From the NCBI GenBank assembly GCA_965655095.1, contig OZ296651.1:38378001-38442000 (forward strand): a stretch of 64,000 nucleotides of DNA, written 5' to 3'. Of this stretch, positions 12,501 through 42,095 are shown one piece after another. Each line of letters begins with the position of its first letter. Positions within the stretch are counted from its first letter, which is position 1. The notes under the pieces are model-generated. The model worked only from the letters and a program-made list of their open reading frames with translations, did not search any database and was not told the DNA's origin. This stretch comes from Haplodiscus bocki (lineage: Eukaryota). A program made the translations under genes and the position numbers.

Positions 12501-15500
12501 GATGTACTGAGAGATTTCGTGGCTGATTGCGGAGGGGAATAACTTGAATAAGGCTAAATACAGCGAAGCTGTTGCAGGCAGCTGCTTGTGACGAGCAGTG
12601 TAAGAAATAGCCTCCAAAAATCTTGCCAGGTAAAACATGGAAACATCCTGCCCCTATTTTAAGATCAAAACCTAATTGAGAGCTGAAAGTATATAAACTT
12701 TTGTCTATATATAAAATATATTTTTCCCAGCTTATCAAATTTATGCATATGTATACTGTTATATGATAGTTGTGAATCGAACCTAAAATCAACTATAAAA
12801 AGACTCTAGCGCAAAAAGGGTAAAAATTACAATGCAGTAGTTTTAAAACAGTCTGTTTACGAAGGTTCTCAATTATTGTTGACCAAATGAAATTCGATCA
12901 AGCTCATGCAAAAAACTATTTATCCGATTGATTTCAAGTTTGTCACATCAAAAATAAGTAGCATTGACGTGATTTTCACATAGACGTCGGCAGCCATAAT
13001 TCTACTGCACTCACTGCGCCGGCAGCCCAAACTCATGTCAGAATCAAGTCACTAGCAATAAAACTAACGTGACGAAGAAACCGATAATTTTAGGTTGAAT
13101 ATGCCTTAAAAATAATCAAATGTGCTTGTAAATTACAAAGAACGATGAATTGAAGTGAAATTGCATACAAATTATTCGCAAACTATATAAAATGTAATAC
13201 GTCAGAACTTATTTCAACGCTCTGCCATGACAGTATACTGATGCATAGTTTTAACAGCTTTGTATCTCTAAGAGTTTCAATTCCATCTCCAATAGCTTTT
13301 TCAAGTGTATTCTGGCTTCCGAGAACTCAATTGACAAATCAAGGAGTGTTACGAAGTTCTGCTTCGCCGTTGTGTCAATGATGTAGAAACGTTTACCAAA
13401 ATAAAAAAATAAATTTAGTTTAATTTTGTCAGCTTCCTGCATTTCATTTTGCCAACCACCGATGAAAAAACCATCAACAGTCTCATAACGGTCTCAGATA
13501 ATTCCCTCTAGAAATTGTTGTTTCGAAGTTTTTACCTGTGGTTAAATGTCACGCTCGCATGAAAAGGACACTAAGTCAACACTTATATTATGCATTTAAG
13601 GTATGTCTTATTATGAAGCTCTTACATCTATCTACTATGACCTAAAATAAAAAAAAAACAAATGAATCACTATGATAAGTCGAAATGAATACAACTACAC
13701 AATATAACCGTCTCCACGTCTGCTATGAACGCGATAAAGTCAATATGATAAATGTGGAAAAAGATGGCAAAGGCACCTCTTTCAATGACCTTCAAGTGAT
13801 GCACCTAATTGACCAATTCGAAGGTCATCGGAACCGAGCCCAACCAGATGTCACTTTAGTGCAGTCAATCTGTACAGTGCCGAGTTTAACAGTTAGAGCA
13901 AGCAGTACCACGCCCACTCTAGTGCCGTCAACTTATTTCAGTTTTTCACAAACTGACCATTCTTAACTTATGAACAATCGGAAATGAGCTGCACCAGCCA
14001 TCACAACAGCGCATTCAACTTAAACTAGGTTTGGAAGTGAGTCGTAACACACCTCACTTCAGTGCATTTAAATTATACAAAACGAAATCTGTCACTGGAT
14101 GTCAGCCGTAACACACCTCACTTCAGTGGAGCGAGCAGCACCACACCCCATTTAGGTGCATTCAATTCACGCAGCTTCAAAACACTCATACTGGAAGTCA
14201 ACTCTACCAGATTTCAATCCAGTGCACTTTCTTCAAATAGCGTGGGAATAGTAGTTGGAGAGAGCTATAAAACGGCTCAACAACAATTGCAGTACGTGAT
14301 CATCCGGCGCTGAAAAGACATAACCAAAAAAATGAAGGGCACATAAACTTACTCAAATGAAATTAGCACCTCCTGTCGAAAAGTAAAAAAGTACAAACCA
14401 AAAGTACAAAGTAGTAATTTTTATATTAATGCGAAAAAAATATAAATGTTAATTGAATAAAAAAAATGGTTCTAAGCAGATAACAACGAGACAACCGTGA
14501 AAGTGAGGTGGAACGAAACTCACTGATCTGGTGACCTGACGTAATTGCATCCGCATTAGAGCCACAATTGTCAGGCGTTACTGTACGCAATCAATAACGT
14601 TAGCTAACTCTCTTACGCCTAACGACGTCACTCTGCTCGATTTCACGTGGCATATTCTTAAAGGTCATTATTGAAAACGACTTCAACCTGCCATTACTTG
14701 TACCTACATGTAGGTCATTGAAACAAGTAATTCGAAGGATTTTATTTCCAAACCTTTTCTCCTCAAATCATGTCAAACAGAACCGAGAACAACTCGCCAA
14801 CAAAAGGTAGTTCAGAGTAACGGTTTGAAGGAAAGAACTGTCAAACAAGTGATATTGATCACCAGGAAGTTCATGAATCCAAGTTTGTGTTCAGTGAGGT
14901 GCCTCACGATTCAGTGTGCGCACGGATAAAAATGGCCACAGACCCGATTCCAGAGAAACTGAGAGATTGTGTGGCTGATTGCGGAGAGGATTGACTTGAA
15001 TCAGGCTAAAAACAGCGAAACTGTGGCAAGCAGCCGCTTTGGGATGTGCAGTTGTTAGAAATAGCCTCTGAAAATCTTTGCCCGGCAAAACACAGAAACA
15101 TCCTATCCCTATTATGAGACCAAAACCTAATTGATAGCTGAAAATAAATAAATTTCTGTCTATATATAAAACATATTTTTCTCAGCTTACCAAAACTATG
15201 CATATGTATATTTTTACATAAAAGATGTGAATCGAGCCCAAAATCGACTATAAAAAGACTGGCGCAAAAAAGGAAAAAAACTACAATGCAGTAAATTTAT
15301 AACAGTCTGCTTAAGAAATTTCTCAATTTTTGTTGGCCGACTGAAATTCGGTCAAGCTCATGCGAAACATTTTTTATCCGATTGATTTCAAACCTTTCAA
15401 ATCAAAACAAAGTAGTGTTGACGTGATTACAAATTATTCGCAAATTATATAAAATGTAATCCGTCAGAACTAATTTCAACGCTCTGCCATGACATTATAC

Positions 15501-15523
15501 TGATGCATAATTTTAACAGCTTT

Positions 15524-16630
15524 TGTCAAAGACAATTCAAAGTACTTTTTCTGACCGCAACACGAAATTACTTCCAATGCAGTGAACGGGTTGCTTTGTC
15601 ACAATCAAGGCATTTACCATAGCTTATGGCACTTTTTCATGAAACCCTAAATTGATGCATTTAATTGTATAATTGGACTCAAGCTTGTAAAATTACATGA
15701 AATTGAACGTATATAACCAGGTTGTCCTCAGTTTAGAATAAAGTCACTGTTCATTGATATATGTCATCAAACGTCATGTAAAAAGCACCAGTTTGGTTTT
15801 GGTGTTCATCCGAGTTAAAGTTGTAGTTATAGTGACAGAGGTAACGTTAGCTTCGGGAGATTGGTGACGAGCAGAAAAGCGACCGAAGGCACGAAGTCAT
15901 TAGAACCCTCGAAGAGGACAGAGAGAAGACACAACAATTCCTGCTTTCATACAAAACATTTGCTCATAACAAAACTTAGGATCTACCTCTATTCGATTGT
16001 TTTATACATTTTTTTATATTTTTTTCGCTGAACCGTTGATATCATTGCTTTTGAATACTTCAACCTTTGACGTGAATATGGTCTTCACTCGTAAGAAAAA
16101 AGACAAAACAAAAGGCTTTGTCAGTTAAATGAACTTTTAAATGGTTTCATCTTTGGTAATGATACCAATGCGGATACAGTTGAAAATGAAAACGTTGAGC
16201 CTCAGACCGGTGGTCTTATTTATAATTTTGGGAAGTCCGCAGTCGGTGGAAGCAGTACAAGTCATAATCAAAGTATTGAAAAGGATCTTGCCGAGTGATT
16301 TATGAAAGAATTTGACAATGCTCTTACAGCCGTCGAAAATCGATTCCACGAAGCGATTTTGCCATCAATGGATAACTTAGTTATACCTAGAGTAGAGACG
16401 GCTGTCAGGTCTATTACTGGGTCATCAGGACGCGGACCAAACAGTGTGGCTCATAATCATGATCAGAGAGATTTCTCAGGGAACATGGAAAATCACTACA
16501 GCATCTAGCCGAGCAGACTCACACATCGATCAAGATAGGAATGATGAGACTCGTAATGTAGAAAATTGTGAGGATGGCGGTTTCCGCGCATGATGACCTA
16601 AATGTTCCCGGCCATCGCACACTCATCACA
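15524..16630 (+). mobile_element. Solo-LTR-like fragment of a second retrotransposon family, with a decayed gag-like leader frame; truncated copies at 7373-8298 and 16846-17781
   Basis: Starts TGTCA where the 2.45-kb unit breaks off and ends ..CATCACA. The decayed frame from ATG 16078 reads MVFTRKK..LCQLNE..ENRFHEAIL..MDNLVIPRVE.AVRSITG. No TSD was found. Confidence 0.5.
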
Positions 16631-16749
16631 GAAGCTCCGGCAAGCTCATTCGACAACCAGTACGACAGAGAGAGACTCAATTTACTCCATTCATTTGTTA
16701 TTATTGGAACTTGTTTGATGGCAACAAAATAAAGTAGTGTTGACGTGAT

Positions 16750-18997
16750 TACAAATTAATCGCAATTTATATAAAATGTAATCCGTTAGAACTAATTTCA
16801 ACGCTCTGCCACGACATTATACTGATGCATAGTTTTAACAGCTTTTGTCAAAGACAATTCAAAGTACTTTTTTTGACCGCAACACGAAATTACTTCCAAT
16901 GCAGTTAATGGGTTGCTTTGTCAAAATCAAGCCATTTACCATAGCTTATGGCACTACTTCATGAAACCCTAAATTGATGCATTTAATTGTATAATTGGAC
17001 TCATGCTTGTAAAATTACATGAAGTTGAACGTATATAACCAGGTTGTCTTCAATTTAGAATAAAGTCACTGTTCATTGATATATGTCATCAAACGTCATG
17101 TAAAAAGCACCAGTTTGATTTTGATGTTCATCCGAATTAAAGTTGTAGTTATAGTTACAGAGGTAACGTAAGCTTCGGGAGATTGGTGATGAGCGGAAAA
17201 GCGGCCGAAGGCACGAAGACATTAGAACCCTCGAAGAAGGCAGAGAGAAGACATAACAATTCCTGCCCTCATACAAAACAGTTGCTCATACCAAAACTTC
17301 GGATCTACCTCTATTCGATTGTTTTATACTTTTTTTATTTTTTTTCGCTGAACCGTTGATATCATTGCTTTTGAATATTTCAACCTATGACGTGAATATG
17401 GTTTTTACTCGTAAGAAAAAAAAACAAAACAAAAGTCTTTGTCAGTTAAATGAACTTTTAAATGGTTTCATTTTTGGTAATGATACCCATGCGGATACAG
17501 TTGAAAATGAAATCGTTGAGCCTCAGACCGGTGGTCTTATTTATAATTTTGGGAAGTCCGCAGTCGGTGGAAGCAGTACAAGTCATAATCAAAGTATTGA
17601 AAAGGATATTGCCGAGTGAATTATGATAGAATTTGGCAATGCTCTTACGGGCGTCGAAAATCGATTCCACGAAGCGATTTTGCCATCAATGGATAACTTA
17701 ATTATACCTAGAGTAGAGATGGCTGTCAGGTCTATTACTGGGTTATCAGGACGCGGACCAAACAGTGTGGCTCATAATCATCTCCAAGAAATAATTAAAT
17801 TTTTTTTAAAGTATTGAATGTTTAGGTTTCGGTTTTTGAATATGATGCAACTCAATTGTTGCGGCTTTTCAGAAGAAGTCAAAATTCACGGGTAGGCTTC
17901 ATTTTCTATATCGTCATCTTAACTCTGGCTCTTCACCTATCAGGTGATATCATATCTACATGTTCACTATAACCATAGCTACAACTTTAATCAAATACGT
18001 CTCAGCGTTATATTATACCAGATTTTCCAACCCGGGTGCATATATGTACTCAAGCCCTACCAGAGATAAAACACTACCAAGATCGTGTTAGAAATGCAAT
18101 AATGCCCTGCGCACATACATGCACTGTAGTAAGAATGCCATGTACTAAGGGTTGTACCTTAATAAGAACGCTCTGTACCCCATAGGAGAAATTTAGGGCA
18201 AAGTTGTCTTTTTGTTAGGTTTGCGTTTTTTATTAAAGAAATGTGGTGAAATTCGCTTCCAAACCCAGCGTTTTGCGTCTGTTCAGGGAACAACAATAAA
18301 GGTCTAATCCAAACGTACCAGTTACAGCAATGTTTGAAATTTTTCTGTCTATTTTCAATCTTTCATCAGACCAACTAAACCAATGAAAATTCCAAATAAT
18401 CCGAAACAATGCATTTGCGAGGCTTTCAAACATATTTCATTGCAATATTTCCAATAGAGATATTTTTTTCCTTTCATTTCATTTCCATTAGCTGATTTTT
18501 TGTGGGTTTTGCTGAAAAGCATAAATTATCAGAACATTACCCTATCATGTAATGTGTACGTATTGGGCCATCCATAAATTACTAAGTAGTTTATGCCTGG
18601 CCCCAGGTCTATTCCTGGGCACGTACTACGTTGTCCCTGTTTCGCCTGTCCCGATCCCTGTCTTATTAATGAAGCCCTGTTCCATCCTTGCAGTAAACTC
18701 GGGATTGCTTTCAAGATGTTTTATTGAAAGTGAAATCTGGAATTTAGCAACAGGTACAAACTCCAAACATGGAAGTGTCGACAAAAGGCGATGGCGATGG
18801 CACTCCAAAAAAAATCAGTAATCATATTACAATTGCTCTTTGAAGTGTCATTCGTATGAAGGCTCATCGTCGACCCATGCAAGTCGATTCTGCTGGGGCT
18901 CAAATTGGATGACAAAGTTTTCAGTTGGCTGCCGGCTGGTGATTGAAGGTGATCGGTGCAATAATACCATAACTACAGTTTGTTTCAATGGCAATCT
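16750..18997. repeat. Segmental duplication, copy 2
   Basis: Near-identical to 7270-9515. Similarity ends after ..CAATGGCAATCT. Confidence 0.92.
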
Positions 18998-20319: not shown

Positions 20320-22473
20320 TGTCAAAGCATTTCTGCTAAGCCTTCCGAAAAACACTCCGTGAAGTAAAGGACACCCGAGGCCCTTTCAAAAACTAAAACT
20401 AGACTGAATGAACACAGAACTATATGGTTATATATAATTTTCAATTAATTATTAAAGGCTGTTTACGTAGCACTTCAATTCAACAATTTGTAAAATATAT
20501 CAGTAGTGTCTACGTATTATTCCTTACAGTTGTTTTCATGTAAATTGGCACGTATCGTGTACGCGCATTTCCAGTGTAGGGATCCAGATTGGGACAGAAC
20601 CGTTACGGAACAAACGGGTAATCACTTATTGTCCTAATTGCTTTTTTATGTTATTAAACAGTGCTAAATTTATAACGTTTTCAAGTATTTATTAATATGA
20701 ACTCATCAGTTACTATACAAGTTATATGCACCGTAGTAAAAATGCCAAGTACGCAGTGATGCACCTTAAGAACAACGCTCTGTATTACATAGGAGAAATT
20801 TAGGGCAAAATGTCTCTTTGTTATGTTTGTGGTTTTCATTAAACAAATGTGGTAAAATTCGCTTCCGAATCGAGCGTCTTGTGTCTATTTAGTGAAAAAC
20901 AATGAAAATCATGTTCAGAAAGACGAATACAGTAATGTTTGAAAAATTTTCTGTCAATTTTGAATCTTTCATCAGACAAACTGAACCAATAAAAATTCCA
21001 CGTAATCCGAAACAATGCTATTGCGCTGCTTTCAAACATATTCCATTGCAATAGTTCCATTGAGGATATTAATTTCTTTTCATTCTTTTTCCATTGGCTG
21101 ATTGTTTGTGGTTTTTGCTAAAAAGCTAGGGTTACCAAAAAACACACAAGTTCATGAACAAGTGCAGCAATTTGATCAAAATTGTGCTGAAAAGAGCTTG
21201 CATAAACAACTGCAACACTAAGAGCGTGACTTTAAAAGTGAATATTTGTTGCCTACGTGATACGTTGCTAACAATCTGGTGACGTCACTACACCTTAATC
21301 CAATGCACCGAGCTACTACGCTGTGTCATTTTGGCCAAACACGGAATGTTTCCGTAGCTACTCAATTCCTTCCTCTCAACAGCACTGCAATGAGCAGTGA
21401 TACAGGCGGCTACTTAGCTGTTCCGGAACACCATGGCCGAATTGAGGAACCAGCTAGTAGAAATAAAGAACGGGCCAAGAACAGGCCTTTTTCTGTACCA
21501 AAAACCTAACTAAACGACGCACCGTGAAGCAATGTAATTTTTAACCTATAATCATGTTATTCTAGTAGTATTTTATTTCATTTTCATCAATTCATTATTT
21601 TATCTTTTCTTTCTACAGAGTAAATTTCGATGTTTTATTTTGTACTTTTATTTATTGTGTCGGCGGGCGAAAAAGCAGTTTGATGTCATTTTCTGATGGA
21701 TTGGACTCGTACATTTTCTTTCGAAAGATGGAAAATACGCGGTCTCCAAGGAGGAAATGGATGGAAAAGTGTTTTTTCCCTTCAAAGTCGGCATTTTTTC
21801 CTTGTAAAAATTATGAGTAAAGTACTTTTTCCTATATGTTACTTGACATGGCGTGTAAACATAAATGTTTCCCCATAACAAAAAGAGGTAAATAGGAGAG
21901 AAAAAAGTACAAAAGGATAATTTTTGTTTTTATTTGTTGCTCTAAATAACACTTCTTTTTTACGCAAACTGTTCCTCACTGAAGCTAGTTCTTCGTCATT
22001 AATTGTACCCAAATTGTTCATTTAGTGCGGAAAAACTAACTTCAGGTTTCACCACTGTCAGCTGTTTTCAATGGCAATTCTGAGAATTAGGAGAAAACTT
22101 GCAGCCCTTAATAAAAAGAATTGTGAGGAAAATCTCAGGAGCGACCTGGCACAAAATACAACTGTTGCCAAACTACAAGAGGAGTATATTACTCAAGTCT
22201 CCGAGAAGATGTAGGGTAGAATGACCAAGAAGTTGTCCTACGATTTCAGTAGGACAGAGAACCACTTTCTAGATGCGCTTTCCCTATTTGATGCCTTTCT
22301 TCTGAACCCACTACTCCAGAGCCACTCCGGATTTACTTCCGACACATCCCAAAACGCGCCTCACATAAATCAAGGAACAAATAATGACGATTCCCAAGTT
22401 GATCTTCATCCTCAAACTACGGTCTCTCAGAGTCAAACAACACAAGTTTTTGGCCCAGACGACTCTTCTGACA
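20320..22473 (+). repeat. 5' LTR (contains a ~440-bp secondary insertion at ~20712-21152)
   Basis: Runs TGTCAAAGCA..GACTCTTCTGACA. Colinear with 34008-35687, roughly 70-80% identical by eye. Confidence 0.88.
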
Positions 22474-22870
22474 TGGTGACAGGCGTTCAAGAAACCCCTT
22501 TATGCTCACTTGGGACGTCTTCAAGTAACCAAAGAAAGCGCGCTCCACAAGTCAGCCACAATTCTGCAGTGAAAACACCTCTGCGAAAATCGGGGCACAC
22601 CAGATGTTGTTGGTCCTTCAGCAGTTGGCGAGTGATAGCAACTCTGCCAACTTCATCAACAACATTATTCGGATTTCAAAACTACCGAAATCCCTCGGGA
22701 CGACAATGTCTACTTTCGATGGGAAATCAAAAAAATTTGAACTGTTTCAGGATTAATCCCAAACGAAAATAAATGTCCATGATCAGTTCACAGAAGACAG
22801 CAAAATATACTAATTTCATCCCTAAATTCGTGGTGAAGCGCTGCAGACATTCAAAAACATCAGCGGCCCA
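22071..22870 (+). pseudogene. gag: gag N-terminal part (stops and frameshifts)
   Basis: MAILRIRRKLAALNK..EEYITQVSE..SRTE..DMVTGVQE, then in a shifted frame KLPKSL..MSTFDGKSKKFELF..RGEALQTFKNISG. Confidence 0.75.
22474..22487 (+). promoter_or_regulatory. Primer-binding site
   Basis: TGGTGACAGGCGTT immediately follows the LTR-terminal CA. TGG complements the tRNA CCA end. It resembles Leu-type TGGTGTCAGGAGT sites, but the tRNA is not identified. Confidence 0.7.
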
Positions 22871-24883
22871 CCGTCTGGATTCATGCTTAGGATTGCCATA
22901 TGGTCGGGTTTGATGAACTTGGATTGCTCCGAAGTGACTTTTTTCTGGTTCCGGTTAGTGAGTTCTTCTTTATTAGATATGGTGAATATGTTGTGTTGGT
23001 TACACTGACTGCTATCTTCTGGCAAATTATTGTCGACATTGAATGTGAAATCAACGAACATCCTGTGTCCGTAAGTTTCTCCAATGGTGTCACAGTTCCT
23101 ATTGTATTGCCTTCTGATGGATGATCAACAAAAGTTGTGATTGTTTTCGTTGTCCTAGATGGTATTGTCATGGCGGTAACCACTAGGACAATTTGGGGTT
23201 TTGCACTCATTTCATTCGCAGCACTCTTGACTCGCATTGTCAAGTGTCGAAATTGCATGAGATCATGCGTCGTATAAATGACTACACTGTTATGTCTCAT
23301 GAAGTGCAATCCGATAATCCGTCCTGTCAAATTCTTTATTACGACGCAGAGTTCAATAAAGGCATTATCTCCATTATCATTTTCAAGTGTGGCTGCTGGT
23401 AAAAGTTTGCTTCTGTAAAGGGCCATTTGCTAGTTGTATTTGAAAATTTGGAGGCTCGTTGACTTTGAAAATATTTTTCGGGGCTTGTTGTTTTGTTCTG
23501 TACAAAATGTTCTGGGCAATTGCACTTTTGTAAGTACTTGAGCTAAGTAAGAGTCGATTGTGAGGCCGTTTTTGGAATACAGGGGCACGTAGAGCATTTT
23601 TTTTGTGTTTTAGGACTACTGTAGAGGTTAGCAGGAGATGCATGTCTTTGATCTGTTCGTCTCCCAACAACTTTTCCTCAATATGTGGGATTGTTTTTGT
23701 GAGAGGAGAATACTGGTATATCCGTTAAGGGTAGTCATTATGTGTTTTTCCGATTCTTGGATGTTGGTTGGGCAATTGTTGGAGCAGTTGAGGAACGGTA
23801 CTCGTTTGTTCCCTGTACGACTTGTCTAGAATTGCTCCATGGTAGTCTTTGGGTTGTGTAATTGGATTCCTTTTGGAGGCCACGCTTGACTTGCCACTCC
23901 ATTTTGTTGCTTCTTTTCAATTTCTTGAGTAGTTTGTTTAGTTTTATTTACAGAGCTTCTATAAGTTTTGTTGTTCTTGTGTTTTTCAAGAGATGTCTCC
24001 TACGGTTTCCGCCAGAAAACCTCGGGATTGGTGGAAGTTTTGTTTTAGTGGTCTCCGGTCTGTCACGTGCAGTTCCTGAGTGAACACTTGGAGTTTAGTT
24101 TAACGTTTTGGTCGCGGCTTGGATGGTTCCATTCGTGTTGTTTTGTGTGTCGTGTGTTAGTTTTGACTCTGTCCTATCGGCCTTCTATTCCAAGTAGGTG
24201 GTCTGTTTGCTGCAACGGCTCCAGAAAAGCATTTTTCTGTGGTGTGTTTCGGTTTCCCACGGGTCTGACAAGGTAGGTAGACAGCTCTGGGTTTGCTGTC
24301 ATTTCGGTAGTTTGCGTTGTGATTATTAATATTATTGCCAATTTTGTTCTTAGGGATGGTGTTCGTTTGACGACGGGTGTTTTTTTGTTTTTTTTGTCAG
24401 CAGTATTTTTGTTGGCCTGACCTTGGTCTTCCTCGCGTTTGAGTTGACGGCATTGATTGCGTTAGTGACTTGGTTTTTTCTAGTGGTGACATGATGATTG
24501 GGTTTTCTCAGGATTTGGTTCTGTGACTTTTTGTGTCATAATGTTTATTTGCAGTTCATCTGGGGCTTACACACCGTTCAGCACTAACTCTATTTCAAGA
24601 TCTGACACCAACTGTTCATAGGTGCTATTCTCCAAATGCGCCTGGTTTCATCAATTTCTCCAGGTGTCGAGGCATCTTGGCATTTATGAAATGTTCCATT
24701 AGCGCTTGAGCAGCAACTCCGAATGCGTACTTTGCTAGTTTTTCGGGTGCGTCCAGAAGGTCGAATAACTTTTGTTTGCTAAACTTTAAGACTAGTTGTT
24801 GAAATTTGTGTTTCGCCATGGCCATTGACTGGGAATTAACGTTTTGCCTACAGTATACAGTCAGATAAACTCCCAAGTCCCGA
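22871..24883 (-). pseudogene. Inverted segment: gag C-terminus (capsid part, two zinc knuckles), aspartic protease and PR-RT spacer
   Basis: The minus strand gives SMAMAKHKFQQLV..AFGVAAQA..AKMP.HL, decayed CCHC motifs (CHH*KKPSH*RNQC; CQTRGKPKHTTEKC), a protease region (..SSTYKSAI..IIGLHFMRHN) and KFIKPDHMAILSM. Confidence 0.82.
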
Positions 24884-24889
24884 CAGCAA

Positions 24890-27800
24890 ATCATTCAAAA
24901 CTGAGGATTACACCCCAATTCAAACACGAACCTTCACAGAAAAACTAGAGGTGAAAGAAAAAGCGAAATCCACACGAAGACATCGAATCCTCAACTAGAA
25001 CCTCTAAAGGATTTGATTGGACCGATACGCTACTTACAGAAGCCAAAAAAAACGAGCAATTGAAAACATTTCGGTTGAGTATCATGACATTTTCGCCAGA
25101 CACAGAATGAACATTGATAAAAATACGGAGTTCAAGGTGAAACTCACCCCGGAAGACAACACAGCTGTCTACACCCAAAGCCAGCCAGTGCCAATCTACC
25201 TGGAGGAAGACCTAATCGTTGAATTAGCTCTTATGCACAAATATGGAATCATTACAGTACTGCCCTTTTGCAAGGACGCAAACACCATCTGCACACAGAG
25301 GAAACCCAACAGCAAACTAGGGATTCCTAAGGTCCTTGGGAAAATCAACAGTCCGATTGCAGATGACTACATAAGCAACAACTACACAGTCGGCACTTTG
25401 TCAGACGCAGTACAACACCTGGCAGGGAAGTCTCTTTTCTGCAAGCTTGATTGCTCCCAAGTCTATCACTGTCTGCAGATGGCGGACCAACGGTCTGTGG
25501 AAACGATTCCAATCAATTTTTCTCGCAGAGTCTTTGCCTGCAAAAAACTTGCACAAGTTCTCAACAGATCTGTGTTTGCCTTTTCAAGTTTCATGTGCGA
25601 GTACTTGGACCCAGTTGTCAAAACTGACCAATGTGCTCAATACGTGGACGATTTTGGAATTGCAGCCAACAATGCTACGTACCTTTTACGTAAAATTCGG
25701 ACAATTTTCAAGTGCATTCGCTGAGCATGATAGAAATTGGCGAAAAAAAGGCCATTTTGTAGTCAGAGAAATTCAATTCCTAGGCAGAACCTTCTCACCA
25801 GAAAGAATTTCAACGCAAGCTCGGAAAAATCAAACAACTTCGGCTAACTCAGATTGTCCAGTTCAAAAAGCACCACATCGCTGCTTGTGATTCGTAAATT
25901 ATTACAAAAATTATTTCCCAGGATGGCCAAAGAGCCTAACCCGTTCTAAAAAGTGCTCAAGGCAAAAACGGCGATCAAGGTCATATTAGAGCTCACGGAG
26001 ACTTTTGATTCAATAAACAAAAGAAAGAATGATTCGTTTGAATTAGCATTGGAACAACCCATTCCAGGAAAACAAATTGTTCTGCTGACTGACGCAAGCT
26101 TCAGAGGCGCTGGTGACGCCCTCATGATCGAGATTAACCCTGACAAGAAAACGCAATCAAAGCAAAACATGTTCGCCGCCATGGCATTTGAATTAAAAAT
26201 CTTCTCTCCAGCGCAAATCAAAATGCCCATCTACTCAAAAGAACTTTTGGCAATGTAAATGCCCCTTCTTGAGCTTGCACGCATTCTGTGGGAAGCAACA
26301 ACCTCGACAATCGTCCAGACAGCTAACTGATTAGTCACGCGATTCTTCCAGACGAAAGCAATTCCACCAACCCTGTGGAACACATGTGACTATGTGTTGC
26401 AAGTTACCATCGAAAAAGCGCACATTGCTGGCTCAGTCAATACGCCTGCTGACTTTTTCTCTACACTAGAACTCAAAGTTACGGAGAAGATACGTCTCAA
26501 AATCAAGAAAGACATCCAGAGAACGCCGATTGAGAGCACAACATTTTCCTCGGACGTCGCTGATGAAGACCAATTCATATTCACTGAAGCTGATACTCAG
26601 AACAAATCATAGGTACAGACTCTGCAACGGAGAGATCAATTTCAGCAAGATCCGAGAGAAAAAGTAGCAAACGAGGAACCATCCAAAATGAGAACTAGTG
26701 TGAAAGAATTTACCAAGATCGACTGAAACACTACGTCGTACTCCACAAATGGAATCAAAGCAAATGAACAATTATGAGCGGCGCAAGATGTCAATGTAGT
26801 TCCGAAGGATTCAAAGATCAAAAGACTTAGCCAGCCAAATGACGAAGTAATACTAACAACAAATAGACGATTTAAACACTACACAGCAAATGAGGATCGC
26901 TTTATCATCAAAGATGGACTGTTGTTCAGGAAACATTACAGAGGAATTGGCAGTGTCAAAAACTACCAAATTCTCATCTCCAAGAAATTAGTCGATGAAA
27001 TAATCTGAAGCTGGCACGGAGAATTTGGAAAGTACTTTGGTATTAACACGACAAAAATTGCCTACGGGAGCAAGTATTATTATCTAAACAAGGCGCAGTC
27101 GAACCGAGAATGGGTCATGTCATGTGAGCAGTGCATGAGAGAACAACGGTTTGATCACAGAATCACCAAGTTTTTCCTGCGAAAGCCTAGCTGACAAATA
27201 ACAGCACCCGAAGACGCCATGCAAATTCGTTTAGTTCCGGAATTACATCGGTCGGGTGGCTATCAGGGTATGGTGACAGTCTTGGACGTGTTTTTTAGTT
27301 ATTTATTATATCCTACCTCACACCTACCTAAGACACCAAAGCAAATGCCAAAATTAAAAAAATCACAAAAAACTGAGCACGCCTACTCACCGACGACAAT
27401 CATTTCCAACAAAGGATAAGCCTTTATGTCTCACGTAATTAAACAAGTGGCTGGCGTCCCATGCGATTACTCTAGAGTCGCTGGAACAAAGCGCGCAAAG
27501 ACCATTGGGTTACTTGAACGCTCACGCGCGTTAATAAAACAATCATTGAGGATTGATACAAGTGAGCGAAGATCATTGTGCAACAAATACGTAAGCATTG
27601 CAGTCGTGAATTGCAACACATCTTATCATTCAAGTATTAGCTGTGAATTAAGCAGACTGTTTCTTGGATACAATCCCAAAAATGTCCTCGACTTGAAAAG
27701 AAACATTCGTCCGCAGAAAGTACCCGCACCAAATTCACAAAATGCCCCGGAGATTCTAGAAAAGACAGAAAGGATTTACCAAGGCGTTCGCAAAAATACC

Positions 27801-28460
27801 ATGCAAGCTCACATCGAATGCAGAGCTTATCACGACAAGAAGATTAATACTTCGAAACTGAAAGAATCAGATTATGTGCATGTTTTACAGCTTAAAGAAG
27901 ATCCTCAAGGAAGCAAACTTCTTCAAACAGAATATCTGTAGATTGGGCCCTCTATTTTTGAAATAGTTATCGAATAACAGTTTTTTGGTACGAGAAATTG
28001 GGACAAACACGACTCATATGCTTGATCGCATGAGACTTTGCTATATGACACCATGACAACTCATACCCAAGGTACAAATCAGGCCATGGGCATGGAAATT
28101 TGGCCCGGAAGGGATCATTAAACATAAGTTCTACGCCAGAGCATGGGAGTGTGAGTACGAAAACCCAGTTTTCGAAATGGATCGCCATAAGGCGGTAACA
28201 CCTAACTCACCCGAAATTGCACTATGATCCAATTCACCAACCAATTAGAAGTGTAGCAAACAAGGAACTCCACGAGAAGGTTCCGCAGAAAGTTTCGCCC
28301 AACAGACGCTTGGTGTGACGGAACGGATACGTATTCCCCCACGGAACTACCTGCGGAATAGGTTTCGGAACAACCCAGTACTACTCCTACGAACCCGGCA
28401 GTACGAAATACGATAAACTTCACAATCCGAAGCCTATCTGTAATGACGATCACACTTTTT
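24890..28460 (+). pseudogene. pol: pol: reverse transcriptase, RNase H and integrase (multiple stops and frameshifts)
   Basis: RT motifs KLDCSQVYH and QYVDDFGI. RNase H motifs LLTDASF.GAG and YSKELLA. Integrase zinc-finger remnants (HGEFGK..CEQC) and core (MQI.LVPEL..SGGY..VLDVF, TIIS.KG..F, TIGLLERS). Confidence 0.92.
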
Positions 28461-28793
28461 AAACTCTCTACATACATTAGTGTGTTCTACAGAATGCATA
28501 CGTACACTTTCCAGGAATCCAACGAACGTGTTACGGAACACGTACGCAGCAACTCAAATCTCTTCCTATTTAGTTTTTTAGATACTCTCTGGTGACCAAA
28601 TTACTTACTACTGTGTCCTACCAATTTTAAAAACACGGTCACTAAAAGAAAAAATTCACATCTATAGACAGACCGGATTCAGACTATTCTACAAATTTGT
28701 TCTCGTTCAACTAAAACTTTATGAACAATGAGTGAACAGATTCAAATAAATGCACATGGAAGCAGTTTAGCAAAATCCAACGGAAAAACGGCT

Positions 28794-31700
28794 TCAAAAT
28801 GGCAGTTCCCCTTGGAAAACGGGCGCGGCTTTTCGATCCCGCCCACTTCGTCGTGTTTTTCCGAGGGATTGCTGGAGGTGCAATGCTTCACTGAAACCTG
28901 AATCCTTAAGTACAATTCCCTTGCGGGGAGTCTCAGGAGGGCTTACAACTCCGACGTGCCTAAGGAGCTTCACTAGCCTTCGGCTTTTCTTCCTCTCCTT
29001 TGATTTTCCTGAGGAGCCACGTAAATTGTTGGGTCTGGGAGTACTAGCAGAGGGAGGACTGACAGGGATGTACTCAACACGCCTTTCTTTAACTATGGAA
29101 GATATCCCCGCCGCTGACCAAGAAGTTGAGCCCTCTGATACCACCAGCCGCATACCATTGCTCTCGTGTATCTTTGATCGCCCGTAGGTGACCAACGGCC
29201 AGATCACGACATGCACACACTTCTGCAAGCACTTGAGAGCGCGACTGAGTCCCAACGTGGATCCAGTGTTCAAACACAGCACTGTTCGGTTTCATGTTGA
29301 ATGTGGCCGCAAACTCTGTTAACTTTGCCACACCGGAGTTGGATAGGAAATTTCGCTGCGTGATGTGCGTGCTCCTGATGAAATCCTGCCAGCAAAGCAG
29401 GGCACCACGCACTCCATGCTCAGCTATCATCACTCAGTCCAGAAAAATGGAGAACTTCTCATCCAAAATCACTGGCAGATGAAGAATCAGAGCTGTAAGT
29501 TGAAACACTTGCAACAAAAGAAAAATAACAACGCCCTACATCGTAGGTCACGACACATACCTTAACCAAATGCTGGAGAGCACGGAAACCAAACTGCAGA
29601 GAGCAAAACGCCAGTGCATTCCCCAAAATCAGGGCGGCTCCTCATGCACGACCGCTCCAGTTGGCACTGTTCCTGCACGAAAGACTGGTTTCCAGTCCAG
29701 CACGCCTCCACCTCACTGCTTCGCAACCACCACCTCCCGAAGTACGTCTAGTTGCAGACCAAACAACAGAAGCGGCGCGTGGTTCTCTCCACCAACCAAT
29801 GTAACAGGCGGAAAACAACTAAATCCCTGTCCGATGTTGAATCGTGCTGCTACGATGGAGAGAACAGAGTTCGTAAACTCCTCCAAAAACTGCCGAGCCG
29901 TGTGCCGAAAATCCTTCTTCAGATAATGGTTCCCAATTTTGATGAGAGCTACTAACACGCGTGTACCGGCAAAAAAGTCCTCTTCCTCTATGGCAGGAAA
30001 TCGGGAGCGATTCGTGGTGACGTACTCCGCCCACTGCTCCACCAGCGGCAACGGAAACCTTTTATTAATCTTCTGCGGAAGACAGTAGGCGAATCTTGCC
30101 AACTCGCCAAAATCGTGGTAGGTGTAACCATTTGATGTCCGGAATGCACGAAACTGTTGCCTGCTGAAACAACAACATAAATCACAAGCATGGAAACAAC
30201 GCCACTTTTACACAAAAGTAACCAATTGTGTGAATTAGGATGAATAGTAGACAGGAAACCTATGAAAAAAAATACTAGTTCGTTCCTAGGACTTTTCTGG
30301 AACCGATCCGCAGCCAGTGCGTCACCAAACTACTGTGATGAAGAACATGACAGTATACTGACAGCTTTCAAGGAAGAGATCACACAACTTGACTTTCATC
30401 CGCGCAAGTTGATCGTGATACAAATAACTGCCCACCCAATTTTTCTAAGCAACAAAACTGCAATGAATACAAAACGAAAGCCGCAATTGAGATTACACAA
30501 AACAGAAAATCTCATCACGCAACTATCCCTATCAACTTTTTGTCCAGTTTCCTTCAATTATGACACCACCTGCGGCCACGCTACAACCATTTTTGAAGCA
30601 AAGTCCACTAGGCTTGGCACTGAAAGTTCGTTGGTATACTGGCTCCTCGAAGTTCAGGGCAAGAGGCCCTACAGTCGCGAGTCTCGGCACACTTCAAACA
30701 TTTGATTACGAACCCTGTCACTTAGAGCAGGTCAAGGCTCCCAAACACAGATGCAGCCGTCCACTGGAGGCAACGCTTGAACAGCCGGAGATCCAATACC
30801 GGGTATTCCACGAATTTGGCATGTTACCCATTGCCCAAGTAATAGGCAAAAATTTTTGGGAGTAGGTGTGGCCCGCCAAGAATGGGAAAGATGGTGACGT
30901 CAGGGCCCAGAGCATCAATAATTTCCCCCAATAGAGTATCGTCAGAAGTGGTGTTGCTACTAGATTGACTTAGTACAACAATACAAACGCGACGAAATGT
31001 GGACCTCTCCCACGTCCACACAAACATTAAAATCTTAGACCAACGCTCCTCAAACTCTACACTTCATGTCTTGTGAGCTCTGATCCTTCCATAACCCCGA
31101 GAAAGAATGCGGGAGTACATCCCATTCAAAACAACAGACTAAAACATAACGCCAATAAGATAATGCATACAGATACGTTGAAACATGGAACAAGGAAACT
31201 AACAGCCAGCATCTCTTTGCGGAACCATGTAACATCAATTTTAATTGGACCGGCAGTCAGGGTGAACTATGACCATTGTTGTTATACACGTTCGTTAGGG
31301 CTGCCCAATCGTAATACTTCGATTAAGGACAACACCTTTCGACGTACTGGCATTGTGGCATCCGGGGTCCCAGAATCATCAACAATGAGATCCTCGGCAA
31401 ACGGATACTCTCTTTTTTTAATTGCCAGAAGATCTCGGAGAATGCGCTCACGTTGTCGCTGTAAATCGTCATTGCTGAAACGGTTTCCCTCAAAACCCAG
31501 TACACGCCAGCCAGGTGTCTCGAGTCTGAGTCGCTGGTCTCGCGGAAAATATTTGACATCTTCGAAAAGCTTCAAAAAATCATGGGCGCCGTATTTCAAC
31601 ACGTACACGTCTTTTTTGGGCAGATGCGACAAATAAAGTGGTTGGGTTTACCAACTACATATGTAGCACTGGTAACAAGAAACAGACTCACTTCCTCTGC

Positions 31701-33041
31701 TCCACAATTTCTTCGTCTTTTACGTCCGTTTTGCACGTACTCGCAGACGGGGCTGGCTGGCTTCGGACTTTTCTCCGCTGGTGTCACTGGCGTCCGGAAC
31801 ATGGGGACCACAAGGTGTAATACCCTGTCCCAATTGACTAAAAAAGGCATCAAACTCTGTGAACAGAAAAAATACAGTGAGGAGAGGAAAGACGCGAAAT
31901 CCTAGAACATGTAGCAAAATTACTTACTTCCCATCAGGGGCTCAGATTTTTGTGCCTTCTCCTCTGCACAAAAAAAGCGACACAGCGTCAACCACTGATG
32001 TGCCTAGTGACGTTGAATGGAGCATTAGCAGGTGCCAAGGAAAAATGGTCTACAAGGAAAAGTCAACAGAAGGAGGAACCGCCAGGGAACCGAACTCAAA
32101 GTGTCTCCATTTGAAATATTCATTACAATGGTCGAACGCCTGCTCGAGCAACTCTTGACTTCAATCGCGGCTCCCATATTCAACTGGACCTGGCTTGAGA
32201 TCAGACAGTGGCACAAAACGTCGCACGATCAGGGCGCCTTTCCATCGTCTTTTGTTCCTCAGCTCCGCCTCTGTTGACACATCATCAGCTCCGTAGAAAC
32301 GTGAAATTGCATCTGCTGGACCTGCAAAATGGGAAAAACAACCGATAAAAACCTGTCCCAATTTTGCTGATGCAAGCACAACAATGCTACGAACTCGACG
32401 GAATTTCCTTAATAGCAACAGTAATGCCGCCGAAATCCTCTTCTCCAGATGTAGCGCAGCCAACCACAAACTCCGATCCGGAACTGGTCGGAACATCACA
32501 AGGTACAACTCCAAGACGAGCAGCAGGCTCTCTGGAAGAAGCAAATACAAAAACACAACAAATTCATGATGCCATCTTCATTTATGAGTAGAAGCTTCAC
32601 CCTAGCTAATGGAAAAATGGATGGCCACTCAATTACTCCTACAATGGAAGCTTACGGAGATGAAAAAAGAAGACTAACCCAATGGCAACTCAACCGTGTC
32701 GACTACACTCTCCATCAGAATCTTTAACAGCAAATTTGCACACTGCAGGATGTCAGTAAACGTGAATCTCTTTGATTTACCTACACTTTTTCTCTCTATG
32801 CTGGCCATGATGTCAACAAAACTGGCTTCTCCTTTGCTGGCTTCTTCTGCTCTGCGGTCAGCATGACTGGCAACCCCCACCACAATTTTCTCCAGTGCTC
32901 TCCTCGCACATTTTTTCCGTCTCTAGCAGCCACACTCAAATCGCGGACAACAGGGGGACTGGGGAGCAAACTTCTTGCTGCAGCGTCCTCTTCAATCGCC
33001 AGTTCTCTTTCTTCAGTACCTGCTTCTTCACATGAACTCAT
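28794..33041 (-). pseudogene. Antisense multi-exon accessory gene inside the LTR element; zinc finger plus hAT-transposase-like body (decayed)
   Basis: A chain of minus-strand protein-like frames is separated by short AT-rich GT..AG introns (31927-31857, 31203-31139, 32678-32639; 29560-29509 has a degenerate acceptor). A CRIC..KDV.V..G..D...F zinc-finger-like motif lies near 31630. Confidence 0.65.
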
Positions 33042-33422
33042 TTCCGCCCAACACTGAATGCGGTAGCTATTACATGACGGATTTAAATCTTCATTTCTTG
33101 AAACATTCTATTTCTTTTTTTCAAGTTTGACTAAATTGTCTGCCAGCGATGACGTCGGCATGTATTGCCAAGGACACATTGAGGAACAGTACTCAAGTGT
33201 TACTCAATTTTATGTTATCCATTTTTCAAATTAGTTTACACTTCGTCAATTTCAACTTTTACTTCTTATTACATAACCTCATCAACTCTAACCGGTAACA
33301 CGGGAGCAACAAAAGAAATCCCACTTGATGAAAGTGAATCAATATTCCCCGCAATAATCATACACTTTTCTAAGTTACTCTTCACGAATCAGTATATATT
33401 CACAGTTCTTCATAATACCGAC

Positions 33423-34094
33423 ATGGTTCGACCACTTACTCCTGACTCAAGCAACTCAGACGTTTTCTGTGCGGAACAGTCATCGGGAGAACCGAGGTCG
33501 GGAAAACGCCCAGGCAGAAAACCCCGAATTCCTCAACTCAACGGAATTATCCAGAGTCCATGCCAGAAGGATGGTTACCATATCATCCGTCAGTTCCCCG
33601 GAGTCAAAAGTGGTCCTATTTGAATTCGACTCAAAGGAGCTGACATTTTTTCATACGCTTATGGAAGGGACGAACCCTATGGTACCGCCCAATCTCAATG
33701 ATTCAAAGCTGCCACATAACCCATTTAACCTCCTGGCTACAATGGCGATGGTACAGCCGACAGCATAACGGTGTCACAAACATCACGGCCCCCAATCATC
33801 GGAGCCATCAGACCCGTCTCTAATCTCGACAGGCCGATGACTGTTAGCACAATTGAAGACTGGGAGACTTCTTCGGATGCCGGAACTTCCGATTCGGAGG
33901 ACGAGCTCCAAAAAGTTTATCTCCTTTCCAGTTCCTCCCCTCCGCCGCCACCTGGAAAACAAAAGAGGAAATTCGGCGTGGTGATGTCTTTTTCAAGAAG
34001 AAGGGATTGTCACAGCACGTCTGTGAAGCCTCCGGACAAAACTCTCGTAAGTAAAAGACACCCCATGCCTTTCCGCATACTAAAATTAGACTAA
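33423..34094 (+). pseudogene. Sense accessory ORF (Ser/Pro/acidic-rich, frameshifted) overlapping the PPT and the start of the 3' LTR
   Basis: Overlapping frames 33423-33623, 33469-33768 and 33771-34094 (MVRPLTPDS..PHNPFNLLATMAMV..STIEDWETSS..SPPPPP.K.KRK). No homologue recognised. Confidence 0.45.
33995..34006 (+). promoter_or_regulatory. Polypurine tract
   Basis: AAGAAGAAGGGA ends one base before the TG of the 3' LTR. Confidence 0.8.
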
Positions 34095-35687
34095 AGATTT
34101 TCCTATGTTTTTCATGTAACTAATAAGCGCTGATTACCTACTATTTCAATTCAACGTTTTCTATTGTTTATACATAGTGTGTACGTAACATTCCTTACAA
34201 TTGTTTTCGTGTAAATTGGCACGTAGCGTATACTTGCAATTCCTGTGTTTTGGAGCAGATAGGGACGGAACCGTTACGGGAGAAACGGATATTCAAATAT
34301 TGTCCTAATTGCCTAATTATGTTTTTAAGGTGTGCTGTAAGTAAAACTTTTCTATGTATTTTTTAATATAAACCCACCAATTGATGAACAAGTGCAGTAA
34401 CTAAAAAAAATTGAGAAAGTCAATGAGTTTGCATAAAGCGATGCAATAAAAGGAGCGTGATTTTAAAACAGAATATTTGTTCCGTATGTGTTCCGTCGTC
34501 GTCAATCTGGTGACGTCACTAGAATTTAATCCAACCCGCTCTGCCACTTCGCTGTGTCAATTTGGTGAAACACGGAATGACTCCGTAGCCACTCAATTCC
34601 TTCTTCTCAACAGCACTGCGACGAGCACTGCGCTGGCTAAGTAGTTGTTCGTGAACGCCTTCGCCAAAATGAAAAACCAGTTAGTAAAAACAAAAAATGA
34701 GCTAGGAACAGTCTTGGTTGTAGTCCAAAAACAAAATTAAACGACGAACAGTGAAGTCATGTATATTTGTAACATGTAATCATGAATGTATAGTTTTAGT
34801 TTTTTCATTTATCATGAAGATATTTACTAATCTTTTGCTATTACGGAAGACCTCCTGATCTTGTTGTATTTTGTAATATTATTCATTGTGTCGTCGTGGG
34901 AACAAACACCTTGATGTCCGTATCTGAATGGTTAAATCCGTGCATATTCCATCGAAATGGAAAGGACGCGGCCTGTGAGGGAAGAATTGGATGGTAATAT
35001 GTTTATTTCCCGCCAGATTCACCATTTTTCTTCTGTACACTTTATGATTGAAGTACTTTTCTCTATTTTTACCGTGAAATGGCGTGTAAACAATTATGTT
35101 TCCTCACAAAAAAGGGATAAATTGGAGAAACAAAAGTACAAAGGGATCATTATTGTTCTTATTTGTTGCTCTGATTAACACTTTGTGTTTAGGTTAACTG
35201 TTCGTGACTGAAGCTAGTTCTTCGTTATTTGTTGTACCCAAAATTTTAATTTGGAGTGGAAAAACTTTCTTCAGTCTTCACCACTGTCAGTTAATTTCAT
35301 TGGCAACACTGAGAAATAAGACAAAACTTGCAGCCCTTAATAAAGAGATTTGTGAGGAAAATCCCATGAGCAACCTGGCACAAAACACATGTATTGCCAA
35401 ATCAGAAGAAGATTATATTATTCAAGTCTCCATGGAGATAGAGGGTAAAATAACCAAAAAGCTGTCCAAGGAGTTCAGTAGGACAGAGAGCCGCATTCTA
35501 GATGATCTTTCCCGAATTGATGCGTTTCTTCTGAGCCCACTACTCCAAGGTCACTCCGGATTTTCTCCGGAAACATCCCAAAACGCGCCTAACGTAATTC
35601 AAGCAACACATGATGACGACTGCCAAGTTGATGCTCATCCTCAGAGTTAAACAACACAAAAAATTAGCCCCGACGACTCTTATGACA
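34008..35687 (+). repeat. 3' LTR (1680 bp)
   Basis: Runs TGTCACAGCA..GACTCTTATGACA. It is preceded by the PPT and followed by the TSD. Confidence 0.88.
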
Positions 35688-40739: not shown

Positions 40740-42095
40740 AATTTCACTCAGCAAAGTTTATTTACTTGAAAAAATCAGTGATATTGGCATTGCTTAAAAC
40801 GAAGTTGTTTATCAAACAATGGAACGATGTATTCTTAGCGCTTCTATCAGTAGTTACAAAATCACCTGAACATGCACCCTTTGCCTCAAAATTTTTAATC
40901 ATTTTATTGGCTCAATGTTCAACAGAAAACTTTTTGACCTGTTTTTTGAAAGATTTTTGTCTGAGAAAAGATAATGAAGTTGACCGCGATTTTTGAGTTG
41001 TTGAATAGGTGAATGAACTAAAGTTTTCCTAAAAAACCCAATTAGGGCTGAGACATAGAGCTGATGAACAGCTTGAAGAATTGAACGCTCAAACAATCCA
41101 CTAGAATGAGTGAAAAAGGGTTTTCCAACAATAAAACGGAAAATTTTTTTTGAAGCAGAAAAATAATATGGAGATTCTTGCTATTTGCACTGCCGTATTC
41201 GATGGGTGCATAAGATATAATTGGTTCAATATAGGTTTTGTAGTAGAGGAGACAGTTTTCGAGGTTCAAATGTTGTCTGGTAAATTTTAGCAAACCAAGC
41301 AACTTCGAAAGTTTCTTCACTACTAAATCTACATGTTTTTTAAAATTCAGCTGGGAGTCTAATTTTTTTCCCAGGTATTTCACGTCATCGACACTCTCAA
41401 AAGGATGGCTATCAAAAAAGATGCTTCTTGTTTCCGATTTTTTCTTTCCAAATTCGATGAATACTGCTTTTTTTCCATATTAAGTCTAAGCCTGTTACAA
41501 TTCAGCCATTGATGAATGCATTCAAGGTTTTCAGTCAATTTTGTAATGGAATCTTTCTCATCAATGACCATAATAGTAGTATCATCAACGTAAAGAGTAA
41601 TTTCAGATTTTTTACTTTTTTCTGGCAGACAATCAGGAAGGTCGTCTATCTAAAGAAGGAAAACAGTGGCCCGAGAATCGACCCCTGAGTTACCCCGACA
41701 AAAATGTTACTTCTCAATGATTCTGTGGAGCCAACTTGAACATACTGGGATCTGTCAGTCAAATAACTCTCTAAAAATGACCACCCTACGCCTCTGATTC
41801 CATAATTTTCTATTTTTTTCAAAAGATTTTTATGATTGACGGTATCAAACGCTTTACTCAAATCCAGAAAAGCACACGCTACAAGCATGCAATTATTGAG
41901 ATGGTTTCTTATATTCTCGATTGGAGAGATCAGAGCGTCTATTGTTGATAATTTCTTTCGAAATCCAAACTGTCTCGGAATTATCTGTTTTGTTGTTTCC
42001 AGGACGTTTTCGAGCTTAGTTTACATTATTCTCTCTACAATTTTGCTGACTGATGGTAGAACAGAAATGGGACGATAATTACTGGGATTAGTAAA
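40740..42095 (-). mobile_element. 5'-truncated non-LTR retrotransposon (CR1/L2-like LINE), RT pseudogene
   Basis: Minus-strand motifs NYRPISVLPSVSKIVE, FLDLSKAFDTVNH, GVTQGSILGPLF, LYVDDT and KYLG..LDSQLNF, with frameshifts. Confidence 0.9.

What the first reader, a model, noticed from the sequence alone, without database searches (positions are those of the whole stretch)
28794..33041. Gypsy retrotransposon carries an antisense, intron-containing gene between integrase and the 3' LTR
Seen: about 4.2 kb of protein-like frames on the minus strand, inside the LTR/TSD boundaries, broken by short canonical introns. These are GTAAGT..TTTTTTCTGTTCACAG (31927-31857, 71 nt), GTTAGT..GTTTTAG (31203-31139, 65 nt), GTTAGT..TGTAG (32678-32639) and GTATGT..TTTTCTTTTGTTGCAA (29560-29509, acceptor decayed). 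Removing the 65-nt intron joins the frame of ORF 31282-31632 exactly to that of ORF 30824-31027 (..KEMLA|SVVLNGMYSRIL..). Established: sense introns are lost during retrotransposition, whereas antisense introns survive. Inference: this family stably carries its own spliced cargo gene in the position where env normally sits. This is the best candidate here for an undescribed system.
Basis: partly seen in the sequence, partly recalled or inferred. Interest (0 to 1): 0.9.

Follow-up and report, generated by a model that had tools for sequence, protein, structure and literature searches.

The report
Retrotransposon carries a spliced backward gene
A jumping-gene family with likely thousands of copies in this genome carries, backwards between its polymerase gene and its right end, a large nine-exon gene that selection has kept; its protein is likely a disarmed DNA-transposon enzyme that would bind DNA and help keep the element switched on.

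Summary
The window holds an old, broken Ty3/Gypsy copy (20320-35687; LTRs 76% alike). Its minus-strand cassette is a fixed part of a large family. Pol follows it in antisense in 46 of 50 copies found by the cassette, and 20 of 20 copies found by pol carry it. It has eight introns, not four; each canonical site counted is kept in 39-45 of 45 copies. Exon lengths keep phase while intron lengths drift. Variants shared among copies show pN/pS 0.08-0.26, against 0.66-0.95 for private ones. No inverted ends flank it. The protein (about 1,170 aa) has an acidic start, a C2H2-type finger, a predicted RNase H-like core and a basic tail. This order suggests a catalytically dead hAT transposase, but no profile test reached significance. 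A second selected ORF sits back to back with it on the sense strand, and cassette types are swapped between pol lineages. No RNA data were available, so splicing is inferred. Antisense accessory genes at this site are known from plant and fungal Gypsy elements; the size, exon count, copy number and likely transposase origin make this a new variant.

The parts
20320..22473 (+). 5' LTR, TG..CA, with about 440 bp extra near 20723-21190; its 3' part holds the start of the gag-like frame
22474..22485 (+). primer-binding site
   Evidence: same motif in relatives
22876..24620 (-). inverted gag/protease-region stretch of this copy (ends approximate)
   Evidence: frame 22890-23429(-) matches the pol strand of 10 of 10 relatives at 49-62%; skew flips
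25017..28600 (+). broken pol: RT, RNase H, integrase and its C-terminal tail
   Evidence: RVT_1 and RT_RNaseH hits; integrase and tail matches
32679..33041 (-). cassette exon 1 (ATG at 33041; acidic)
32395..32547 (-). cassette exon 2
32127..32321 (-). cassette exon 3
31928..32049 (-). cassette exon 4
31207..31856 (-). cassette exon 5, with the C-x2-C-x16-H-x5-H finger of the family
30516..31138 (-). cassette exon 6, predicted RNase H-like core followed by helices
30363..30444 (-). cassette exon 7
29561..30163 (-). cassette exon 8
28794..29508 (-). cassette exon 9, basic tail and stop
33042..33400 (.). spacer between the two back-to-back genes, with a short motif kept in the types viewed about 50-60 nt before the cassette ATG; likely promoter (inferred)
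33358..34094 (+). second accessory ORF (sense, Ser/Pro/acid-rich, about 250-330 aa in relatives), running through the purine tract into the 3' LTR; broken here
   Evidence: shared pN/pS 0.13, no modal stop in 208 codons
34008..35687 (+). 3' LTR, preceded by the purine tract

Best explanation
This Gypsy family carries, antisense between pol and the 3' LTR, a selected nine-exon accessory gene whose protein is likely a catalytically dead hAT-type transposase that would act in the nucleus as the element's own DNA-binding activator or anti-silencing factor. SHOWN: fixed position in independent insertions, eight conserved intron positions, phase-keeping exons, purifying selection during the family's spread, no flanking inverted ends, and exchange of cassette types between pol lineages. 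ESTABLISHED LOGIC: introns that are antisense to the packaged RNA are not spliced out of it, so they ride along through reverse transcription. INFERRED: (1) a DNA transposon inserted backwards into the 3' region of an ancestral element, bringing or later gaining introns, and lost its ends and active site; (2) integrated copies transcribe it from the spacer shared with the sense ORF and splice it; (3) the finger and transposase scaffold bind sites in the element while the acidic N-terminus recruits transcription or chromatin machinery, raising the output of genomic RNA. My odds: selected spliced accessory gene about 0.95; hAT ancestry about 0.6; activator or anti-silencing role about 0.45.
Confidence: 0.45

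Rival explanations
1. The same selected gene, but the protein acts at integration: it escorts or tethers the pre-integration complex to chromatin or to preferred sites, as a scaffold for integrase.
For: A transposase-like DNA-binding scaffold with a basic tail. It is kept in 20 of 20 pol-found copies, as expected for a step each new insertion needs. A nuclear-import role has been proposed for plant antisense ORFs (PMC7264820, section 3).
Against: The cassette types do not follow the integrase tail: five type-B2 copies form one branch on exon 8 (100/100) but are rejected as a clade on the pol tail (p-AU 2.8e-05), which argues against a tightly co-evolving partner. The TSDs seen are all different.
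Confidence: 0.22
2. The same selected gene, but it counters a host restriction or small-RNA pathway by protein contacts, or works as half of a toxin-antidote-like pair with the back-to-back sense ORF.
For: Two selected accessory genes lie back to back. At least five cassette types at 52-68% DNA identity ride on much closer pol backbones (A, B1 and B2 at 83-87%) and are swapped between them, as with alternative counter-defence modules.
Against: No sign of positive selection: dN/dS is low within and between types. No enzymatic or toxin family was found for either protein.
Confidence: 0.2
3. The cassette is a captured host gene unrelated to transposases; the fold likeness is only the common RNase H-like arrangement.
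For: Kinase- and actin-like folds tie with or exceed Hermes. All sequence-level hAT tests were non-significant. Eight introns are more than I recall for most hAT genes.
Against: No host-gene relative turned up: the listed hits are unnamed family-like pieces, and one search found none among long proteins. A finger, then an RNase H-like core, then a long helical part is the hAT order (recalled), and three exons place collinearly.
Confidence: 0.3
4. The cassette is a nested, still-mobile or neutrally decaying DNA transposon, or the introns are chance motifs.
For: Every copy aligned is broken somewhere: 0 of 46 have all nine exons open, 5 have eight. No RNA was seen.
Against: Same place and orientation in 66 of 70 copies. 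No inverted repeat of 9 nt or more is shared among 4 copies tested. Strong purifying selection on shared variants and phase-keeping exons. Breaks are private, as for pol.
Confidence: 0.03

Closest known systems
Antisense additional ORFs of plant Ty3/Gypsy elements: Grande gene23, RIRE2, Retand TRP28 (PMC7264820, parts 1-2 of section 3 read; PMC11963269, passages read)
   Same: Antisense to gag-pol, between pol and the 3' LTR, present in most copies and conserved; a nuclear, DNA-binding regulatory role is proposed; gene23 has its own promoter.
   Different: No TRP28 (PF04195) hit here. The word 'intron' does not occur in the Retand paper's main text. The review says these ORFs lack similarity to other transposons, whereas this one likely derives from a hAT transposase and has nine exons.
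brtn of Boty-like Gypsy elements of Botrytis (Zhao et al. 2011; not held, seen only as a citation in PMC7264820, PMC8365987 and PMC4227169) and spliced antisense genes in other fungal Gypsy elements
   Same: Antisense gene at the same position; that such fungal genes are spliced comes from recall and from the scan's notes.
   Different: The notes describe stretches of about 0.6-2.2 kb, several for small Cys-rich proteins. This one spans 4.2 kb and about 1,170 aa, has a different architecture and has a second, divergent sense ORF. Homology to brtn was not tested.
hAT transposases (Hermes, PDB 4D1Q, 2BW3, 8EDG)
   Different: No acidic residue where the second catalytic Asp would lie, no CxxH, no conserved third Glu (register inferred), no PF05699 hit, no TIRs, and long acidic and basic extensions.
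Retroviral antisense regulators (HTLV-1 HBZ; passage in PMC11963269) and extra ORFs of animal Gypsy elements (bdelloid ORF3, PMC5408684 passages; planarian Burro, PMC6431247 passages)
   Same: Accessory genes in the 3' region of LTR elements; HBZ is antisense and nuclear.
   Different: The passages read describe the rotifer and planarian extras as ORF3 or polyprotein domains (exonuclease, esterase, BIR and others), with no antisense multi-exon gene and no transposase. HBZ is a small bZIP protein (recalled).
VANC anti-silencing proteins of Arabidopsis VANDAL elements, and dead Harbinger-transposase chromatin factors such as ALP1 (recalled; no paper read)
   Same: Functional analogy: a transposon-encoded or transposase-derived, non-catalytic factor that acts on silencing.
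   Different: They belong to DNA transposons or to the host, not to an LTR element; no homology was tested.

Membership tests
Ty3/Gypsy LTR retrotransposon | Two TG..CA LTRs, PBS, purine tract, short TSD | tested here: met
   window; relatives
Ty3/Gypsy LTR retrotransposon | gag, then pol in the order PR-RT-RNase H-integrase | tested here: met
   Pfam on relatives' frames and their order
Antisense accessory genes of Gypsy elements (aORF-3R) | Antisense, between pol and the 3' LTR, in most copies | tested here: met
   46 of 50 and 20 of 20
Antisense accessory genes of Gypsy elements (aORF-3R) | Conserved like the element's own genes | tested here: met
   shared pN/pS 0.08-0.26 against 0.23 for the pol tail
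Antisense accessory genes of Gypsy elements (aORF-3R) | Own antisense transcript and nuclear protein | not testable with these tools
   no run on record as RNA
Retand-type antisense ORF | TRP28 (PF04195) domain | tested here: not met
   no hit at E up to 1
hAT transposase | N-terminal BED or C2H2 zinc finger | tested here: inconclusive
   C-x2-C-x16-H-x5-H conserved; only weak C2H2 Pfam hits, E 0.04-0.1; hhalign E 0.024
hAT transposase | RNase H-like core with a helical insertion | tested here: inconclusive
hAT transposase | DDE triad and CxxH motif | tested here: not met
   Glu is common at the end of strand 1, but no acid at the second site, no CxxH and no conserved Glu at the third; the register is inferred
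hAT transposase | C-terminal dimerisation domain (PF05699) | tested here: not met
   no Pfam hit; hhalign E 0.36; the members scanned hold an intron read-through at this spot, which weakens the test
hAT transposon (nested element) | TIRs and 8-bp TSD around the gene | tested here: not met
   (inverted repeats only; an 8-bp duplication was not searched separately)
env of errantiviruses | Sense orientation, signal peptide and transmembrane anchor | tested here: not met
   antisense; no env family hit; highest 19-residue hydropathy 1.89, in exon 6, and 1.04 in exon 9

The most novel reading that the evidence does not exclude
A class I element domesticated a class II one. A hAT transposase gene was captured backwards with its introns, disarmed and kept under selection by a Gypsy family that then reached thousands of copies. 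It serves as the element's own DNA-binding anti-silencing factor, and is swapped as a module between pol lineages together with a divergent second accessory gene.
Probability: 0.35. Interest if true: 0.87.

Novelty: new variant of a known kind. Interest (0 to 1): 0.7.

Why it matters
The origin and job of antisense accessory genes in LTR elements are open questions; the 2020 review says their origin is mostly unknown and asks for a look at antisense spliced transcripts (PMC7264820). This family offers many natural copies of different ages (LTR pairs from 76% to 99.8% alike), at least five cassette types and a candidate ancestor. That makes origin, intron history and function testable with ordinary RNA-seq, profile searches, ChIP and knock-down. 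If the hAT reading holds, it shows one transposon class recruiting the enzyme of another as a regulator. In practice, gene predictors would call these copies as thousands of false host genes.

Tried and rejected
RNA: no RNA holder was listed. The four runs of unknown kind covered introns and exons alike, and none of the 15 joints shown (of 339) matched an intron, so they say nothing on expression. ESM Atlas gave no usable hit twice. Pfam gave nothing meaningful for cassette pieces or the sense ORF. PDB sequence searches were blank or at chance level. An alignment of non-overlapping exon pieces failed and was dropped. The exon 5-6 model was too poor to use (pLDDT 39.6; search). The profile search found 1333 proteins at E of 0.001 or better, but only the best 150 were listed, all pieces of 474 aa or less, so distant relatives could not be seen. 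A search among long proteins found none. Exon profiles did not hit 25 hAT loci of this genome; further hAT groups were not examined. Self-association of the protein was not tested. Acceptor 6 was mis-set by 2 nt and corrected. Five of 50 loci (L066, L067, L076, L085, L090) were left out of the cassette alignment for gaps or truncation. In one search one copy (L072) was mis-grouped, so the clade test was repeated with five rows, also leaving out the long branch L064. Literature: nine searches were answered, and no listing showed a multi-exon antisense transposase-derived gene in an LTR element; the library lacks most subscription journals, Repbase and Zhao 2011. No supplements were read. The scan's notes held nothing for this genome or this protein.

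Full report
Setting. The window lies in a 1.5-Gb eukaryotic assembly (G000:C4). The host was not identified; 'probably animal' is my inference. The finding sits in a Ty3/Gypsy copy at 20320-35687. It has TG..CA LTRs that are 76% alike (1276 of 1674 columns), a PBS, a purine tract and a 5-bp target duplication with one mismatch. Pol is broken but recognisable, and about 22.9-24.6 kb is inverted. It is an old, dead copy.

The family. One cassette exon gave 4008 first-look candidates, of which 150 were scored; a second type gave 8530 (95 scored) and the pol tail 5889 (150 scored). These are not copy numbers, but they point to thousands. Ten of ten 20-kb stretches showed protease region, RT, integrase and then the cassette on the other strand, with an LTR pair visible in 9 of 10 at 95.5-98.6%. 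Pfam on their frames gave gag, protease, RT, RNase H and integrase in Gypsy order. Among 50 copies found by the cassette, 46 had the pol tail in place; three of the others hold N gaps and one is truncated. To avoid ascertainment bias I hand-picked 20 copies from the pol hit list, and all 20 carry exon 9 in antisense. Six copies of a young type C have LTRs 95-99.8% alike. Eight of 12 copies examined have exact and different 5-bp TSDs, and one more has 4 of 5. The cassette therefore travels as part of the element.

Gene structure. Aligning 45 copies with the window (5 of 50 loci dropped for gaps or truncation) showed eight introns. GT was kept in 44, 41, 43, 43, 45, 42, 45 and 41 of 45 copies at donors 1-8. 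AG was kept in 43, 45, 42, 39, 44, 43 and 42 of 45 at acceptors 1-5, 7 and 8; acceptor 6 was mis-set and is seen. Type C has the same eight positions (one of six copies lacks the 5' part). Modal exon lengths differ between types only by multiples of three, while intron lengths vary in all phases; intron 8 is 79 nt in 32 of 35 type-A copies, so it cannot be read through there. The exons add up to 1,173 codons in L033.

Selection. In the frame set by the intron phases, pairwise dN/dS is 0.19-0.44 where estimable, and synonymous sites are saturated between types. Four other frames give 0.82-2.48, and the reverse frame that shares third positions gives 0.23-0.56. Among 35 type-A copies, variants shared by three or more give pN/pS 0.26, 0.08 and 0.18 (exons 1-4, 5-8, 9), with 1 stop among them. 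Private variants give 0.95, 0.72 and 0.66, with 39 stops. The pol tail gives 0.23 and 1.0 by the same method. The gene was therefore under purifying selection in the lineages that transposed and decays after insertion, like pol. None of 46 copies aligned has all nine exons open; five have eight, and the window has two. Type C was not in that count.

Not a nested transposon. No inverted repeat flanks the cassette in the window, and none of 9 nt or more is shared among four other copies.

A second gene and module exchange. Back to back with the cassette, a sense ORF of about 250-330 codons runs into the purine tract and the 3' LTR. It has no modal stop in 208 codons, with shared pN/pS 0.13 and private 1.01, and no Pfam family. 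A short motif in the spacer is kept in the types viewed, which suggests a shared promoter (inference). Cassette types A, B1, B2, C and the window's are 52-68% alike in exon DNA, whereas the pol tails of A, B1 and B2 are 83-87% alike. Five B2 copies form one branch on exon 8 (100/100) but are rejected as a clade on the pol tail (p-AU 2.8e-05; L064 left out, L072 regrouped). Cassettes move between pol backbones, most simply by template switching (inference).

How it likely works. A backwards DNA-level insertion of a transposon explains orientation and introns together (inference). Integrated copies would transcribe and splice the gene from the spacer. A dead transposase keeps DNA binding and self-association, and an acidic arm suits activation, so I commit to an activator or anti-silencing role (0.45 for the whole chain). 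Rivals are an integration co-factor (0.22), counter-defence or a paired system with the sense ORF (0.2) and non-transposase ancestry (0.3, overlapping with these). None of the functional steps was tested, and no RNA run was on record.

Comparison with what is known. Antisense ORFs between pol and the 3' LTR are described for Grande, RIRE2, Retand, PvRetro13 and Boty, with origin and function open (PMC7264820, abstract and parts 1-2 of section 3; PMC11963269, passages). Zhao 2011 on brtn was not held and was seen only as a citation. Unchecked notes of this scan report spliced antisense genes, one with seven introns, in fungal Gypsy elements; this lowered my novelty rating. Extra ORFs of rotifer and planarian Gypsy elements are of other kinds in the passages read (PMC5408684; PMC6431247). 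The search listings showed no multi-exon, transposase-derived antisense gene in an LTR element, but the library is partial and Repbase was not available. Verdict: a real, selected accessory gene; a new variant of a known kind; interest 0.7, and 0.87 if the transposase-domestication reading holds.

Noticed in passing
window 152-2380 (+): Four adjoining frames that look, by recall, like the core protein, major capsid and protease end of a Polinton/Maverick; Pfam gave no meaningful hit.
   Followed up: partly
window about 2986-16900: Tandem units of about 2.45 kb, roughly five copies, in part 92-99% alike.
   Followed up: no
window about 46900-64000: Array of about 1.75-1.78 kb units, nine or more copies, with alternating unit types that suggest a two-unit higher-order repeat.
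   Followed up: no
window 20723-21190 and 18116-18520: About 440 bp present in the 5' LTR but not the 3' LTR resembles a stretch 2.6 kb upstream (78-85%).
   Followed up: no
window 22215-22473 and 35198-35650; relatives L031-L050, L123-L134: The gag-like frame begins inside the LTR, so each LTR ends in coding sequence upstream of the PBS.
   Followed up: partly
window 41646-42020 (-): A separate reverse-transcriptase fragment (RVT_1, E 3.5e-13).
   Followed up: no
L043-L044: A family copy with four tandem 1.79-kb repeats of the integrase region, over 99% alike; real or an assembly artefact.
   Followed up: no
L039-L040; L045-L046; L129: Tandem or nested family members: a shared LTR followed by a second gag, and type-A cassette pieces beside a type-C element.
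   Followed up: no
G000, for example L135: A young hAT family with about 20 equal-scoring hits and 624-aa open frames, besides several other hAT groups.
   Followed up: partly
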